A stretch of 64,000 nt of DNA from Escherichia coli (GTDB taxonomy: Bacteria; Pseudomonadota; Gammaproteobacteria; Enterobacterales; Enterobacteriaceae): assembly GCF_044324875.1 (NCBI RefSeq), contig NZ_CP172185.1, one strand, 5' to 3'. This document shows positions 49,701 to 55,700 of this stretch, one piece after another. The first letter of the stretch is position 1. Each line of letters opens with the position of its first letter. Position numbers: made by a program.

Positions 49701-52700
49701 TCAGCTGATTCTGGTTGTTCAGATACAGCACCCGGAATTCTTCACGCTCCAGTCCCGCCATGTTCAGAATCAGCCATTCCCGTGCCGCATGCGTGGAGGT
49801 GAAGGCCACGCCGGGTTCATGAAGATGGCGGTCCAGGGCTTTCAGGGCCCGCTGAATGAGGCTGCGCTCTCTGGTTGTCATTTCTCCGGGCAGAAAGGAA
49901 ATCTGTTGCATTGTTCCGGCCCCCTTTCAGTCAATGATGCGCATAATGGCGCTGCATTCCGGATGCTGCAGGGCGTAATCCCGCAGACGGTAATAATGAA
50001 CCGTCATGGCATAACACTCCGTACGGCAGGCGTGATGACTGTACGTCATCAGACAGGCAGCAATGCCGGCGGCTTCCGGGCTCATTTCAGCGCGGTTACC
50101 GTTCATGGCATTGAACAGTACCCATGTTTCGTCATCATCATCATCCGGTTCGGGGGCCATAAATGCCCCGCCGTTGTTCAGGGTGTACAGATTCCAGATA
50201 CCACCGCAGTAGTCTTCGCACAGACGGTCCATCCAGCCGAAGACACTGGGCTCCAGGGTCACCCACTGTGGAATGAGGCCAAAATGCTGCGGCCAGAAGC
50301 TGATGCGCTGTTCATCAGGGACGAGGCTGGCAACCAACTGAGGCGGATTATTCTCTGGTGTTGTAGCTGAATAAATTGTGGGGGTATTCTGAGAAACGGT
50401 TTTCATGAGATAACGCCTTAAATAACAAATAAATGTGTGTTTTTCAGGAACGAAAGCTGAATGATTCCCTCACTCAGGGAAACGGCATCAGCGCATGCTC
50501 TCCAGCAGCGTTTCTGCCATCACCCACAATGCGCGGTTGAGTTTTATATCGGTATCAATGCTGTGAATGGCCCGGGTATGGATACGTTTTCCTTTTGCAC
50601 TGCGACCGGAAATCCCGCCTTTCAGCATATTCTCCTGGATGGTCTGATAAGCACTCCACAGGTCCTTACCGTAATCCTCCCGGCGTCGTGGTGTCAGAAT
50701 GTCGGCGGTGGTGACGGGCTGATGTTCGTCACCATAACGGTAAGTCAGTGCCGCCTGTGCCAGCGCCTGGCGTGCCGGTGGCGGCAGGACCAGCGACTGC
50801 ATGGCATCACGCTTCTCCTCTATCCGGTCAAACACGCCCACCACCTCGTAAGCCCCTTCAATGACTCTGTCCACCACATTTCCCCGGTGCGGAACACGCA
50901 CTTCCCCCCGAGACTGACCGCAGACGCATCCGTTCTGGCAGACGAACCTGAAGTAACCCGGCAGCATCTGGTAGCTGGAGGTACCGTCATGAGAGTTGAG
51001 CAGAATAATTTCAGGGACATGTTGTCCGTTTATCTCCCCGTCACGGCGCAGACGCAGCATGTGTTTGGTATACCCCCGGCGACCCGGGTCACGTACGCGG
51101 GTCTGGCAGGCGAAGAATGGCTGAAAGCCTTCCCGCTGCAGGCTTTCCAGCACGGTGATGGTGGGGATGTATGTATAGTTCCGGCTCCGGGAGGTGTGTT
51201 TATCTTCCCCGAAAATCCCGGGCACATGGTGCATCAGCTCTTCACGGGTCAGCGGACGGTCACGGCGTATCTGGTTCGCATAACCAAAACGACTGGCTAA
51301 TCGCATACTTTGCTCCTTATCAGTGGTTAAGACTGAATGACGTAATCAATGAAAAAGCCGCGTCTCACGGAGAAGACGCGGCCTGATGGATGAAATGAAT
51401 GAGGGTTTACCGAAGCCCTTCAGCATTGTGGTGACGCAACCGGAAATGCGTTTCCTGGTTATCGCCGGGGCCGGTCAAAAAGCGGGGACATTCAGAACAG
51501 GCGATCCCACAGTGTGATCAGCAGGCGGATAATGCGATCACGGGCTTTGCGCAGAAGCTGCAGCATCCAGGCCGGAAAGCTGAACCGGGCAATGGCAGCG
51601 TCAAAACTCTGGCCGATGGCGTCACCAAAAGCCTGCTGTGCGTGTTGCTGATCCTGCGCAGTGCGCTTTTCATTCCGGATATGCGAATAAACCGCGCTGG
51701 TTGCCTGTGGTGGCAGGGCGTGGATCATCAGAGACACAAATGCCGGAAGATTCCAGCCGGCAGGAGCGGCTATGGGGAGTACCGGAAATGATGAAGGGAA
51801 CAGGGTTGCCACCCGGGCTGTCACCGTCGCCAGTGAGAGTTCCTGCTGACGGGATGGCGTGCTGCTCTGGTTGTTCCATTCTTCAGCCGGGTGGATGCGA
51901 TCGGCATGGCTGAGAACAAACAGAAAACGCGAGGGATCGGCACCTTCATTCAGTAAAAACTGATGCATGGCGATGTCGGCAGCATACGCACGTTCATCAG
52001 CCCGCAGGATCCAGATAATCAGATCCAGTTCGGGCAGTAACTGACTGTAAAGTGCCCGGTATTCCTGATCATGCTGTGGTGTTTCGCCAGTGCCGGGCAG
52101 ATCGACCAGCGTCATTCTTCGTTCACCGGGCTGAAAGGTAAGACGATGAGCCTGACGGGTGCAGCCGTTCAGCGGATGCGTGGCGCAGACACGGGACTGA
52201 AAAATGGCATTGCACAGGCTGCTTTTTCCGGCACCGGATTTACCCATAATGCCAATAACGGGTTCGTACTGAATGACGCTGCGAAGATGTTCAAGGATTT
52301 TCTGGCGAATTTCTTCAGGAAGAAAGGTCAGATGTGACTTTACGTGTGCGGAGAGGGAAGAATGGCTGAATGACATACCGTTATCCTGTTGATTTCACTG
52401 AACCGGATCACATTAATCCGGCCTCTCAGTCAGGTAATATGGACGTGAAAATTTTTCCATTGACGGGAAGAAGAGTATGGCTAAAAACAAAGGTATCTGT
52501 CGGAATAAAAAATGCAGCAATCCTGTTTCAGAATTTGATGAGGCAAATGCCCTGAGGTTATGTGATGATCATTATCAGTTATGGAAACGAAATAAAGAGA
52601 ACCGTCGGGTCAGGAATATTTGTCGTATAATCAGTAAATATGACAAAAGTCTGGACCGGGAGATATTTGACAGAGTAATAGATGCTGCAAGAAATCAAAC

Positions 52701-55700
52701 GGGAAAGAGAATTGTTGAGGACGCAAAAATATTACATCAATTGCGCAATTCAAAGCAAGTAAGAAAAAGTCTTCATAATGGAGTACTCCGGTCACGGGAA
52801 TGGCTCAATACACAGGAGTTACTGAGAAGAAAAAATATATCTGTTACAGGTGACTCATTTAAATCTTACATAAAGGATATTGTCAGATTATATTGCTATA
52901 AGTTTCTCTACAGCAGAGAATATCTTAATGAAAACGCATACAAAAAACAATATCAGAGAGTTATTAACCCCAGAGAATTTAATGTTCCGATACTTCAACT
53001 TGAAGTTGCATGGATCAATAATAATTGCCGTTCAAGTGATTCAAGCTCTGATATTATCATCCTTCCCAGGATGATAAGAAGAATGGTTGTATTTAATGAT
53101 ACGAAGATAAATAAACAATTAGAGGAAATGTTGGGGGGGATAGCACGAAAAAAAGTCGCAGTAAGGAATAAAGGCGGTCTCTATACCAGAATAAAAAAAG
53201 AAAATGATTTTCGTTCTATGGATAGATTTATGGTGGAAATCGAAAATATCATAAGACCTGAAATATTTCCGACATCAATTTACCCGCCTTTTTCACTTTC
53301 ATTTATCGAGAGAGAATTGCCACTACTGAATCTGGCGCACTCACAGTACAAAAGAGCAATAAGTAAAAAAGTGGCGAATTCAATTTTTTATACTTTGCGA
53401 AAAACTCACGTGGCATTATGGCTGCATCTTGAAATGTTTGCTCTTGTGGCATTCATCAAACTGTATACAGGAAAAGGGTTTGAATTCATGAAAAACATGT
53501 GTGTATTTATAGATTATGATAAAGGGATAATAAAATCCACGCATGAAGAACTGCTGAGTGAAATTAAGTGTAACATTCAGTTGAATTTAAAGGTGAATCC
53601 TGATAATTTTCCTGAATTAATAGAAATATACAATTCATGCTTTAGTAAAAATATATTGTTGTATGATGTTCAGGATGATGGTTTTAAATGGTGTTTATGA
53701 TGTGAAAATATTAAATTTATATTACATTTTAATTATCGACAAAAAACACATAAAGAAATCTAAAGGGAATGAGCGTCAAATGAGCTGATATAGCGCCAGT
53801 TTGGTATGGTCATGTGATTTGATGATTAAAGCTTACGGATAATAACACTCCTCTGTGAGCCATATAAATGAGCATGCCATAATCGTCAGTTCAGAGATAA
53901 AACTGACTGAATGATCTTATGTTATAGTAAGCAGTGTTTACCGGATACGATGACTTATCTCTCTCACATCATATGGATTCACTTTCATGGGGTAAAGCGA
54001 TGGGACTACAGACGCTGATTATGATGGTTTGCTGTAAAGTTAGCACAAGTTTTTGCTGTACAGAATACGGAGTAAGAAAAATAATTCCAGAGTAAATCTG
54101 CTCTGCTTTTGAACAGAAAAGATTCATGCTTACCGTGAAAAACTGAAACCAACATTCAGTCTGCATGGATGTCTTAAGATGTTGAGAATGTCGGATATGG
54201 TATTATATACACCTTTTCCATTAGGTCCTTTTATGTTTTCATTAAGTCGTTTTGTATGTATTCCTTCAGTGATTCATTAGTGCATGTTTACGCATTTACA
54301 CACTTTTCCCATTAATCTCCTTTAAATGTGTTTCATTACGCATTGCTGTACACATTTTTGAACTGATACACATCCAAGTTAGTAAACCTGTCAGTTCTGA
54401 TTTTACGTTAACTAAATCAGTTTAATGCTGCTGTAAAACAATCTTTCCTGTTTAAGCAATCAATCTGCTATTCGATTTTACTGATGTGACGTTTAACCTT
54501 TCCTGAGCTTTGGTTGTTTGTGGTTTTTGGTTTGTGTTTCGACGTTAAGCTGAGAAAAGTATCTTTACGCTAAATCAACCCGAACTTTCCTGAGGTGATC
54601 TGACGTTCTTTTCGATGTGCTTACGACGATTCTGTTAAACGACTTTCTGGATGTTTTGATAACAATCAGATTGAGGCATTAACGATTCCTGACGTTTTGC
54701 TTTTTCATGTAAGGTCATTGTTTTCGTCATGATGTGGTTTTTCTTCTTGCATTGCGAAAGTGTGATGATTGGTTTTGGTTTTTTGATTCAGATGAGATTT
54801 ACGTTATCGATGGTTAATCGTTTTTATGGTGCGTAGTGAAACGTAACATTTTCGGGATGAGAAAATCGATTCTGATGGTGATGGGGATGATCGTGTTACG
54901 GCGTTATCTGTAAACAGGTTTTAAACGTGTCATTCGCATTCGTGATTGAGTTGTGTGATTAAGCTGTAGGTTTTGGCGTTGTTGTTGATTTGCATTGCCA
55001 GGAAGCGTTCTGGTTGCGTTTCTGGTGTTTTGTTCGAATGTTCTGTGGATCCTTTTCCCTTCAGGCTTTTCTCGTCGTCCATGTCGTTTTTAAATCCATT
55101 CATGCTGTTGTTGCGTGTTTTGCTGCTGTGTGCAGGATTATCTTTTCGTTCCGGGATGGTTTGTTCCGTTTCAATCACTCTTAATCAGAGAGTTGTAGCA
55201 TTGCTTAATGACATGATGCCGTAAAGTTTTACCGCGGTGATTAATGATGTGAAGTCAATCCAAATCAACGGAGATCTCTCATCATGAATCAACCAATACA
55301 CAATGCTTACTGGTTATCCCGTTTTGACAGCCTTCTCGACAGTGCCCTGTCGCAGCACCGTGCCGTCTCGTTAATCCGGGTGGATTTACGTTTCCCTGAG
55401 TATATGCCTGTCACCATCATGGATCCCGATCCGGATTCAGCGGTGATTTCTCGTTTTTTCGAATCCCTGAAAGCCAAAATCCAGGCTTACCAGCGGAAAA
55501 AACGACGTGCCAACAAGCGTGTGCGTGCAACCACTCTGCGTTATTTCTGGTGTCGGGAGTTTGGCAAGGAAAAAGGCAGGAAACATTATCACGTGATATT
55601 GCTGCTCAACAAAGATACCTGGTGCTCGCCAGGGGATTTCAGCGAACCATCTTCGCTGGCGACGATGATCCTGGAGGCATGGTGCAGCGCCCTGCATCTT

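What the first reader, a model, noticed from the sequence alone, without database searches (positions are those of the whole stretch)
52477..53700. Orphan 407-aa low-GC gene in the variable part of the CP4-like island
A well-formed ORF with a plausible RBS sits divergent from the YeeP-like GTPase gene, where islands of this family usually carry variable cargo. The protein is Lys/Asn/Arg-rich with an N-terminal Cys/His cluster (C-x4-C ... C-x2-H) that could be a zinc ribbon, and I recognise no family. The suggestion that it is a single-gene defence or abortive-infection determinant is speculative and rests only on genomic context.
Basis: inference. Interest (0 to 1): 0.65.

Follow-up and report, generated by a model that had tools for sequence, protein, structure and literature searches.

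The report
Dead-nuclease gene in fixed island slot
The 407-aa gene is real. It is one version of an undescribed, fast-diverging zinc-finger protein family, descended from a DNA-cutting HNH enzyme whose cutting residues are lost here, that fills the same slot in a common type of E. coli genomic island; its function is unknown.

Summary
ORF 52477-53700 (+) is intact, 34% GC beside a 55% GC GTPase gene, basic (pI 9.6) and Lys/Arg/Asn-rich. Its C8-x4-C13...C29-x2-H32 cluster is conserved across the family. It is under purifying selection (dN/dS 0.26) and occurs in 974 of 5426 complete E. coli genomes.

It matches no Pfam, NCBIfam, PADLOC or PDB family, but it is not an orphan. It belongs to a small Enterobacterales family: 43 clusters among 1.84 billion representatives.

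Fifteen distant members carry an intact HNH motif. The window protein keeps the predicted beta-beta-alpha fold (AlphaFold pLDDT 84.5), but W179, D188, D192 and R201 replace the His/Asn/Asn/Asn residues. It is therefore probably nuclease-dead.

It is not random cargo. In most loci examined a family member lies next to the YfjP-type GTPase gene, the AlpA gene, or both. Three E. coli island types whose GTPases are 94-96% identical carry slot proteins only 19-23% identical. The gene is therefore a hypervariable cassette in a fixed backbone slot.

Function is inferred only. My best guess is a non-catalytic nucleic-acid-binding specificity factor of the island. Defence is neither supported nor excluded.

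The parts
52477..53700 (+). CDS of the 407-aa protein ('X'); RefSeq WP_045147348.1, annotated 'hypothetical protein'
   Evidence: ORF. 100% match annotated in AR_0085. dN/dS 0.26 against the 91% allele. Family alignments A1, A2 and A5. AlphaFold model pLDDT 84.5, pTM 0.72.
52498..52572 (+). N-terminal zinc-knuckle codons (C8, C13, C29, H32). The first two ligands lie on a short hairpin and the last two at the start of helix 30-55.
   Evidence: Invariant in A1 and at least 90% conserved in A2. pLDDT 80-91 for residues 1-40. Zinc binding itself is inferred.
52999..53133 (+). Degenerate HNH (His-Me finger) beta-beta-alpha unit, residues 175-219. W179 sits at the catalytic His position, D188 and D192 at the two Asn positions, and R201 at the helix Asn position.
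   Evidence: Column-by-column alignment with HNH-intact relatives. Predicted strands 175-179 and 193-197 plus helix 198-219, with 10-residue block means of pLDDT 88-97 over residues 171-210. HNH identity of the relatives' motif.
53317..53697 (+). Family-defining C-terminal helical domain (residues 281-407). It holds the residues conserved in all clades: P282, L286, R293, E319, Y385, N386, F389.
   Evidence: Invariant and near-invariant columns of A2. 10-residue block means of pLDDT 89-98 over residues 281-400, 81 for the last residues. No structural relative in PDB, AFDB50 or BFVD outside the family.
52433..52440 (+). GGTAATAT, an 8-mer invariant in the GTPase|X intergenic region of 7 loci from several genera, 36-38 nt upstream of the start codon. 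Candidate -10 or regulatory element.
   Evidence: Alignment A8. Also present in islands with the 376-aa and 320-aa slot types. The consensus promoter scan did not call it, so any promoter role is inferred.
52403..52421 (.). Inverted repeat CCGGAT-N7-ATCCGG in the divergent control region. The other genera carry inverted repeats of different sequence at the same position.
   Evidence: Read from the sequences printed. It is identical in E. coli islands with all three slot-protein types, so it does not co-vary with X.
51492..52376 (-). YfjP/YeeP-type GTPase gene (294 aa), first gene of the leftward backbone operon
   Evidence: RefSeq names. NCBIfam Era/Der-like G-domain hits. Weak PADLOC LeoBC match, E 3.8e-7.
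47017..51306 (-). Backbone module: DUF932, antirestriction (ArdB-like), RadC/JAB, DUF987, CbeA/YeeU antitoxin, CbtA toxin, DUF5983-like, DUF4942
   Evidence: ORFs. Names from the near-identical RefSeq locus L001. phmmer synteny.
53701..54077 (+). Non-coding 3' flank specific to this slot type; it travels with the gene as part of the exchanged cassette
   Evidence: About 80% conserved with the 91% allele, but not alignable with the island carrying the 376-aa type. The blastn match starts only at window 54078.
54078..55283 (+). ORF-free, AT-rich 1.2-kb region upstream of the first Gp2/YfjJ-like gene, shared by islands with different slot types
   Evidence: 73% identity over 1218 columns with L019. 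No ORF of 83 aa or more lies wholly inside it. No Rfam hit. No AlpA remnant.
55284..58075 (+). Rightward backbone: three YagK/YfjJ ('inovirus Gp2', HUH Rep-like) paralogues (55284-56015, 56342-56944, 57479-58075) and an AlpA-type excisionase/regulator gene (57013-57249)
   Evidence: RefSeq names in L001. NCBIfam 'excisionase family' hit for AlpA. Pfam YagK_YfjJ_C and REP_ORF2-G2P on homologues.

Best explanation
Shown: the gene encodes a selected, 48-kDa basic protein. It belongs to a small Enterobacterales-only family that occupies one fixed slot in tRNA-targeting integrative islands of the CP4-57/P4 type. The slot lies between the YfjP-type GTPase operon and the AlpA excisionase / HUH-Rep genes. 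The family descends from a zinc-finger HNH nuclease. This branch keeps the N-terminal zinc knuckle, the beta-beta-alpha fold and a family-specific C-terminal helical domain. The catalytic His and the three conserved Asn residues are replaced by W179, D188, D192 and R201. The gene, with about 25 nt upstream and about 380 nt downstream, is exchanged as a cassette between near-identical islands.

Inferred: the protein no longer cuts DNA. It probably acts as a sequence- or structure-specific nucleic-acid-binding (or partner-binding) factor made together with the island's excision/replication genes. Its rapidly changing specificity would decide which DNA or which helper/invader the island responds to, for example in induction, replication or packaging. 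It would then be a specificity module of the island's life cycle rather than generic cargo.
For: - Reality and selection.
- Family size: the profile search of 1.84 billion representatives found only 43 clusters. Foldseek against AFDB50 returned family members only, from Escherichia, Klebsiella, Salmonella, Providencia, Serratia, Enterobacter, Lelliottia and Kosakonia.
- HNH ancestry: 15 of 32 aligned members carry L-E-x-[CS]-H-x-Y-P-N-S-x-G-G-x-N-x3-N-x-I-I-A-P-x2-I-N-R, with H, N, N and N invariant.
- HNH ancestry, PDB test: a profile of that region hit 11 PDB chains (E 0.19-0.96; 10 of them named HNH nucleases or HNH-domain nucleases such as McrA, Cas8f-HNH, IscB and Cas9, one unnamed). In the five best alignments, which were printed, the motif's His aligns to the target's motif His.
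- HNH ancestry, Pfam test: Pfam HNH_4 matched 8 of 15 members at E<=0.1, best 3.5e-4. The NCBIfam Cas9d profile matched weakly at the same residues.
- Degenerate site with the fold kept.
- Fixed slot: GTPase(-) | X(+) AlpA(+) Gp2(+) in L002, L004-L006 and L009. AlpA-X-GTPase run co-directionally in the HNH-intact loci L010, L011 and L018.
- Same slot, other family members: a 376-aa protein (hhalign 99.9%, E 7e-36) and a 320-aa protein (97.3%, E 2.3e-11).
- Cassette behaviour: GTPases 94-96% identical against slot proteins 19-23% identical. Junctions lie near 52452 and 54078.
- Basic charge consistent with nucleic-acid binding.
- Element class (integrase, AlpA excisionase, HUH Rep, RadC/ArdB/CbtA module) as described in PMC12458937, section 11.
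Against: - There is no experimental or expression evidence at all.
- Nucleic-acid binding is inferred from ancestry, charge and the zinc knuckle.
- The conserved promoter-like 8-mer and the inverted repeat do not change when the slot protein changes. X is therefore unlikely to autoregulate through that repeat.
- The GTPase does not co-evolve with X, so a tight X-GTPase complex is not supported.
- In E. coli, AlpA lies 3.3 kb away rather than adjacent.
- Some loci lack the GTPase next to X (L012, L013, L015-L017).
- E176, D192, R201 and R202 are invariant within the close clade, so an unconventional catalytic activity cannot be ruled out.
Confidence: 0.4

Rival explanations
1. Single-gene (or X plus GTPase) anti-phage defence or abortive-infection determinant. 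X would sense or bind phage nucleic acid or protein, and either it or the GTPase operon would halt infection.
For: - Hyperdivergent alleles in a near-identical backbone and low GC are typical of conflict genes.
- These islands carry defence cargo nearby: type I R-M, TIR, McrBC, GmrSD.
- Distant relatives have an intact nuclease motif.
- The GTPase has weak similarity to the Eleos LeoBC/LeoA profiles.
Against: - No PADLOC hit for X or for ten relatives.
- The slot always holds the same family, unlike defence hotspots that hold unrelated systems.
- The nuclease site is degenerate in the clades that dominate E. coli.
- X is co-oriented with the alpA/Rep genes.
- Proximity to defence cargo is explained by the island architecture itself.
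Confidence: 0.22
2. Anti-defence or establishment factor. X would belong functionally with the ArdB/RadC/CbeA-CbtA module and protect incoming island DNA, for example as a catalytically dead nuclease decoy that occupies sites or partners of host nucleases.
For: - It lies directly beside the module that contains antirestriction and RadC genes.
- Dead-enzyme decoys are a known anti-defence strategy (general knowledge).
- Hypervariability fits an arms race.
Against: - It is transcribed away from that module in the close clade.
- It is basic, not an acidic DNA mimic.
- It is absent from 72,556 plasmids and 50,697 phages, where anti-defence genes are usually common.
Confidence: 0.1
3. Decaying selfish HNH endonuclease gene. 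The active form spread as a homing-like element inside these islands, and the E. coli versions are inactive relics without a present function.
For: - An intact HNH occurs in only one clade.
- The catalytic residues are lost in two other clades and the N-terminal finger in a third.
- Distribution is narrow.
Against: - dN/dS is 0.26, like the neighbouring GTPase.
- It is near full length in 967 of 974 E. coli genomes that carry it, and all 30 sampled records are annotated as intact.
- The degenerate site and the C-terminal domain remain strongly conserved within clades.
- The position next to the GTPase and/or AlpA genes is kept in most loci across genera at about 35% identity.
Confidence: 0.08
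4. Spurious ORF in AT-rich DNA.
For: Low GC and no family hit.
Against: Full-length homologues at 17-37% identity with conserved motifs. Purifying selection. A confident structure prediction.
Confidence: 0.01

Closest known systems
HNH / His-Me finger endonucleases of the HNH_4 type (Pfam PF13395; the HNH domains of Cas9, IscB, Cas8f-HNH and McrA)
   Same: Distant family members carry the motif [ED]-x2-H ... N ... N on a beta-beta-alpha unit. They give weak but consistent matches to HNH_4, HNH_5, Cas9d and PDB HNH chains. The window protein is homologous to them over its full length and keeps the predicted beta-beta-alpha unit.
   Different: In the window protein the His and all three Asn residues are replaced (W179, D188, D192, R201), and it has no Pfam hit even at E<=10. 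About 200 residues of C-terminal helical domain have no known relative. The residue before the His is Cys or Ser, not Asp or His, even in the intact clade.
Backbone genes of CP4-57/P4-like tRNA-integrating islands (integrase, AlpA, YfjJ/YagK HUH Rep, YfjP GTPase, DUF932, ArdB, RadC, CbeA/CbtA), the MGE class described in PMC12458937
   Same: Same elements and the same neighbours. The position inside the element is fixed in most loci sampled across genera.
   Different: It is not mentioned in the passages of PMC12458937 that I read (section 11; keyword passages and the Figure 5 legend). Its supplementary tables were not checked. It diverges about twice as fast as the other backbone proteins: 34-37% identity against 53-75%. 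It is swapped as a cassette.
Hypervariable specificity genes at fixed positions of mobile elements (e.g. SaPI Stl repressors, PICI Rpp, lambdoid immunity regions). This is a functional analogy from general knowledge only.
   Same: A fixed slot, extreme divergence in an otherwise conserved backbone, and proximity to excision/replication genes.
   Different: No sequence or fold similarity was found, and there is no HTH domain. The operator-like repeat does not co-vary with the protein. No helper phage is known for these islands.
Ogr/Delta zinc-finger activators of P2/P4
   Same: A small Cys-based zinc motif on a protein of a P4-type element.
   Different: Ligand spacing differs: C-x4-C-x15-C-x2-H here, against C-x2-C-x22-C-x4-C as recalled from the literature. 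There is no Pfam Ogr_Delta hit. The protein is about five times larger.

Membership tests
HNH / His-Me finger nuclease superfamily | Beta-beta-alpha-metal fold | tested here: met
HNH / His-Me finger nuclease superfamily | Catalytic His at the end of strand 1 | tested here: not met
   W179 occupies the column that holds the invariant His of 15 relatives. Other close-clade members have F, Y or K there.
HNH / His-Me finger nuclease superfamily | Conserved Asn residues (structural Asn and metal-ligand Asn/His) | tested here: not met
   D188, D192 and R201 occupy the three invariant Asn columns.
HNH / His-Me finger nuclease superfamily | Significant match to an HNH profile | tested here: not met
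   The window protein has no Pfam hit at E<=10. Only the distant relatives match: HNH_4 in 8 of 15 at E<=0.1, best 3.5e-4, and ten of the eleven PDB profile hits are named HNH nucleases or HNH-domain nucleases, one being unnamed.
HNH / His-Me finger nuclease superfamily | Common descent with proteins that have an intact HNH site | tested here: met
   A profile of the close clade retrieves the HNH-intact proteins over their full length at E 1e-17 to 1e-7. The alignment is full length. Foldseek gives E 1e-8 to 1e-4.
Known or candidate anti-phage defence systems (PADLOC-DB 2.0) | Match to a defence-protein profile | tested here: not met
   No hit for X, for ten distant relatives or for the HNH-intact E. 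coli homologue.
Known or candidate anti-phage defence systems (PADLOC-DB 2.0) | Protection against phage when expressed | not testable with these tools
   Needs plaque and growth assays.
Reverse transcriptase (UniProt name on relative A0AAX3CP38) | RT (RVT) palm/finger domain | tested here: not met
   No RVT family appears among the Pfam hits of any of 32 members. NCBI names the same sequence 'hypothetical protein'.
Backbone of CP4-57/P4-type integrative islands | Constant position relative to the AlpA, HUH-Rep and GTPase/DUF932/ArdB/RadC/CbtA genes across divergent elements | tested here: met
   Exceptions lack the GTPase (L012, L013, L015-L017).
Backbone of CP4-57/P4-type integrative islands | tRNA-adjacent integrase and flanking direct repeats of the same element | tested here: inconclusive
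   There is no tRNA gene in the window, and no integrase gene was identified within the part examined (48-64 kb). Integrases are present in related loci L011, L017 and L018.
Zinc knuckle / treble-clef finger | Four conserved Cys/His ligands, two on a hairpin and two at a helix N-terminus | tested here: met
   C8, C13, C29 and H32 are conserved. The model places them on a hairpin and at the start of helix 30-55. Metal binding was not tested.
Phage or plasmid gene pool | Homologues in sequenced phages or plasmids | tested here: not met
   tblastn of X and of P0033 found nothing in 50,697 phage records. X found nothing in 72,556 plasmids; P0033 gave one disrupted match. BFVD gave no hit.

The most novel reading that the evidence does not exclude
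The slot encodes a family of hypervariable sensor/adaptor proteins built on a dead HNH nuclease. They would set the specificity of CP4-like islands: which helper phage, conjugative element or invading DNA triggers or is blocked by the island. This would be a switch comparable in role to SaPI Stl or PICI Rpp, and would give the first handle on how these very common E. coli islands are mobilised or defend their host.
Probability: 0.15. Interest if true: 0.8.

Novelty: new variant of a known kind. Interest (0 to 1): 0.5.

Why it matters
Islands with the YfjP-type GTPase backbone are detectable in 1882 of 5426 complete E. coli genomes. They carry defence, virulence and metabolic cargo. How they are induced, replicated and moved is poorly understood.

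This work defines an unannotated protein family that fills one fixed slot of these islands. The window type is in 974 genomes, the 376-aa type in 463 and the HNH-intact type in 10. The family derives from an HNH nuclease that has repeatedly lost its active site. The gene is exchanged as a cassette between near-identical islands. That pattern marks it as a likely specificity determinant and a concrete target for experiments.

For annotation, 'hypothetical protein' could be replaced by a family name such as 'island-associated zinc-finger HNH-like protein, catalytic residues lost'.

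Tried and rejected
1. Curated libraries gave nothing for the window protein. NCBIfam, PADLOC, Pfam and PDB sequences had no hit, and PHROGs gave one noise hit at E 0.043.
2. The first AlphaFold run with 9 sequences was too poor to use: pLDDT 56, residues 86-279 below 50. Only the 44-sequence alignment gave a usable model.
4. A PDB profile search with the full-length alignment gave only noise, such as a ferritin-like protein and eIF2B.
The close-clade scan of 100,044 species genomes found only 2 loci.
6. The 'Reverse transcriptase' label on a Klebsiella relative is unsupported.
7. I considered that X autoregulates through the inverted repeat in the divergent promoter region. 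This is unlikely, because the repeat is identical in islands with three different slot proteins.
8. I considered that X and the GTPase form a co-evolving pair. This is not supported: GTPases are 94-96% identical against 19-23% for the slot proteins.
9. I looked for an AlpA remnant, an Rfam RNA or iterons in the 1.6-kb downstream gap and found none.
10. Literature searches on YfjP/YeeP/YkfA and on the protein accessions returned nothing relevant.
11. The small ORF at 53934-54095 could be a second cassette gene, but the evidence is inconclusive.

Full report
**1. The observation**

- The window holds an ATG-started ORF at 52477-53700 (+) of 407 aa.
- It starts 100 bp from, and divergent to, the 294-aa GTPase gene at 51492-52376 (-). 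RefSeq names that gene 'GTPase family protein' or 'YfjP family GTPase'.
- GC is 0.34, against 0.55 for the GTPase gene.
- The protein is basic (pI 9.6), with K 9.3%, R 8.4% and N 8.1%.
- The Cys/His cluster is C8-x4-C13 ... C29-x2-H32.

**2. It is a real gene**

- Megablast finds the ORF in 974 of 5426 complete E. coli genomes. It is near full length in 967, and all 30 sampled records annotate it as an intact 'hypothetical protein'.
- There are two allele classes: 41 genomes at 95% identity or more to the window, and 933 at about 91%.
- Between the two classes dN/dS is 0.26. The neighbouring GTPase gives 0.22.
- Full-length homologues at 32-37% identity occur in Citrobacter, Klebsiella and Salmonella.
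- They align from Met1 and share many invariant motifs: SREWxNTQEL, YSREYL, LxLEV, IRRMV, LPLFNLA, LExFAL, YNSCFS.

**3. No curated family, but not an orphan**

- NCBIfam, PADLOC, Pfam and PDB sequences give nothing for the window protein. PHROGs gives one noise hit.
- A profile search of 1.84 billion representative proteins returns only 43 clusters, 12 of them at E<=1e-30.
- Foldseek against AFDB50 returns 21 significant hits. All are family members, from Escherichia, Klebsiella, Salmonella, Providencia, Serratia, Enterobacter, Lelliottia and Kosakonia.
- Only 2 of 100,044 species-representative genomes carry a close-clade member.
- There is no homologue in 50,697 phage records. In 72,556 plasmids there is one disrupted match, to the HNH-intact member.

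The family is small, restricted to Enterobacterales and chromosomal.

**4. Ancestry: an HNH nuclease**

Fifteen of the 32 aligned full-length members carry, in the middle of the protein, the motif L-[ED]-x-[CS]-H-x-Y-P-N-S-x-G-G-x-N-x3-N-x-I-I-A-P-x2-I-N-R. One His and three Asn residues in it are invariant. They also carry a second Cys cluster after the first finger.

Individually weak but fully consistent matches identify this motif as HNH:

- A profile of the 61-residue region retrieves 11 PDB chains at E 0.19-0.96. Ten are named HNH nucleases or HNH-domain nucleases (McrA, Cas8f-HNH, IscB, Cas9, 4h9d and others) and one is unnamed. In the five best alignments, which were printed, the motif's His aligns to the target's motif His.
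- Pfam HNH_4 matches 8 of 15 members at E<=0.1 (best 3.5e-4) and HNH_5 matches 2. No other Pfam family appears.
- The NCBIfam Cas9d profile matches the same residues in three members.
- UniProt already names three of these relatives 'HNH endonuclease'.

**5. The window protein has lost the catalytic residues but keeps the fold**

- In the alignment, W179 stands at the His column. D188 and D192 stand at the two loop Asn columns, and R201 at the helix Asn column.
- With a 44-sequence alignment AlphaFold gives a good model: pLDDT 84.5, pTM 0.72.
- The model shows strand 175-179, strand 193-197 and helix 198-219 at this site, with 10-residue block means of pLDDT 88-97 over residues 171-210. This is the beta-beta-alpha topology of a His-Me finger.
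- It also shows a hairpin-plus-helix N-terminal knuckle that carries C8, C13, C29 and H32.
- Residues 281-407 form a confident helical domain. It holds the residues conserved in every clade: P282, L286, R293, E319, Y385, N386, F389.

My conclusion is that the protein is an HNH-derived pseudo-nuclease. The loss of activity is inferred, not shown. E176, D192, R201 and R202 remain invariant within the close clade, so the site is still constrained.

**6. Genomic position: a fixed slot, not variable cargo**

- In five loci from other genera the order is GTPase(-) | about 95-100 bp | X(+) | AlpA(+) | YagK/YfjJ 'Gp2' HUH-Rep-like(+). Their backbone proteins are 53-75% identical to the window's, while X is only 34-37% identical.
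- To the left runs DUF932-antirestriction-RadC-DUF987-CbeA-CbtA-DUF4942.
- In the HNH-intact clade the order is AlpA-X-GTPase on one strand (L010, L011). In E. coli AR_0019 this lies inside a tRNA-Sec island that runs integrase ... AlpA-X-GTPase-HTH ... DUF932-RadC-YeeU-CbtA.
- Other distant members follow a DUF3987 primase-like gene, or precede a ParM-like gene.
- These elements match the class described in PMC12458937, section 11: integrase, AlpA excisionase, HUH Rep, cargo, and a RadC/ArdB/CbtA module.

**7. The slot is hypervariable**

- Close relatives of the window's GTPase gene occur at 2537 places in 1882 E. coli genomes. That is more than the 1066 places that hold X.
- In islands without X, the same divergent position holds a 376-aa 'hypothetical protein' (WP_000147745.1, in 463 genomes). 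It is a family member: hhalign 99.9%, E 7e-36 over 361 columns, 17% identical to X, 34% identical to P0047.
- In another island type the position holds a 320-aa member that lacks the N-terminal finger: hhalign 97.3%, E 2.3e-11.
- The 376-aa protein's HNH site is also degenerate in the hhalign alignment.
- The GTPases next to the three slot types are 94-96% identical to each other, while the slot proteins are 19-23% identical.
- The shared sequence ends about 25 nt upstream of the start codon, after GGTAATATGGACGTGAAAA. It resumes about 380 nt after the stop, near window 54078.
- The gene plus a short 3' flank is therefore exchanged as a cassette.
- The close clade and the 376-aa type are persistently AT-rich (28-34% GC) beside 45-55% GC neighbours.

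**8. Control region**

- The 100-bp divergent region contains an 8-mer, GGTAATAT (52433-52440), invariant in seven loci from several genera.
- It also contains an inverted repeat, CCGGAT-N7-ATCCGG (52403-52421).
- Both are unchanged in E. coli islands with different slot proteins. This argues against X binding that repeat as a self-specific operator.
- The generic promoter scan did not call a site there.

**9. Mechanism**

Shown:
- Family membership, HNH ancestry and degenerate catalytic residues.
- Retained predicted fold and purifying selection.
- Fixed slot and cassette exchange.
- Absence from phages and plasmids, apart from the one disrupted plasmid match.

Inferred:
- The protein no longer cuts DNA.
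- It binds nucleic acid or a partner through the zinc knuckle, the dead His-Me finger and its basic surface.
- Together with the excision/replication genes, it serves as a fast-changing specificity module of the island.

I rate this at about 0.4. The rivals are:
- Defence or abortive infection (0.22). There is no profile match and the nuclease site is dead, but the hypervariability fits.
- Anti-defence or establishment (0.10).
- A decaying selfish HNH gene (0.08). Selection argues against it.
- A spurious ORF (about 0.01). This is refuted.

**10. Novelty and verdict**

No curated library or paper in the searchable collection describes the family. It is best filed as a new variant of a known kind: an HNH-derived, catalytically degenerate zinc-finger family specific to CP4-type islands.

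Its 'orphan in the variable part' reading should be replaced by 'hypervariable member of a backbone family'. Its defence suggestion remains untested.

Interest is moderate (0.5). The gene is common in E. coli and has an unusual evolutionary pattern, but no function has been demonstrated.

Noticed in passing
window 54078-55283: A 1.2-kb ORF-free, AT-rich stretch with strong T bias on the + strand lies upstream of the first Gp2/YfjJ-like gene. It is conserved (73%) in islands with a different slot gene. It has no Rfam hit, no AlpA remnant and no clear iterons. It could be a long leader, an origin or an unannotated RNA.
   Followed up: partly
window 53934-54095 (+): A 53-codon ORF with a CC...CC motif sits in the cassette's 3' flank. 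It stays open without indels in two 91%-allele islands (dN/dS 0.37-0.38). Other frames score similarly and a third island has an indel, so coding status is unresolved.
   Followed up: partly
window 51492-52376 (-): The C-terminal part of the YfjP-type GTPase (residues 183-284) matches the PADLOC LeoBC (Eleos) profile at E 3.8e-7. The GTPase next to the HNH-intact homologue matches LeoA weakly. This may link the island GTPases to dynamin-like defence GTPases.
   Followed up: no
window 55284-58075 (+): Three paralogous YagK/YfjJ ('inovirus Gp2', HUH Rep-like) genes lie in tandem around one AlpA gene. Related islands in other genera have one or two.
   Followed up: no
L013 (CACSKA010000007.1, labelled Chryseobacterium sp. 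18061): This contig carries an enterobacterial-type island (DUF932, antirestriction, X, AlpA, Gp2) at 49% GC. It is laid out almost exactly like L012 from Enterobacteriaceae bacterium RIT691. It is probably contamination or a mislabelled assembly.
   Followed up: partly
UniProt A0AAX3CP38 (= P0016, Klebsiella michiganensis): This family member is named 'Reverse transcriptase' in UniProt. No RT domain is detectable, and NCBI calls the same sequence hypothetical. It is probably an annotation error.
   Followed up: yes
window 11126-11347 (-) and 31152-31190 (+): Rfam finds the C0719 sRNA (294 bits) and a JUMPstart element (53.6 bits). The JUMPstart lies just upstream of a long rightward gene cluster next to kps capsule genes (kpsE 43491-44639, kpsF 44711-45730).
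   Followed up: no
window 45750-46500: A sharp low-GC pocket (0.30-0.33) lies between kpsF and the DUF4942 end of the island. In the related strain MS6198 an IS110 fragment lies in this gap. It may be the island boundary.
   Followed up: no
window 59197-63506: To the right of the backbone lie a LacI/GntR-type regulator, ascorbate-type PTS IIA and IIC genes, and a transketolase N-terminal subunit gene. This is metabolic cargo rather than defence genes in this copy of the island.
   Followed up: partly
L018 (E. coli AR_0019, tRNA-Sec island) 13562-17901: The island with the HNH-intact homologue carries ImmA/IrrE, 'beta family protein' and sce7726-family genes between the integrase and AlpA. This is possibly a defence cargo set.
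   Followed up: no
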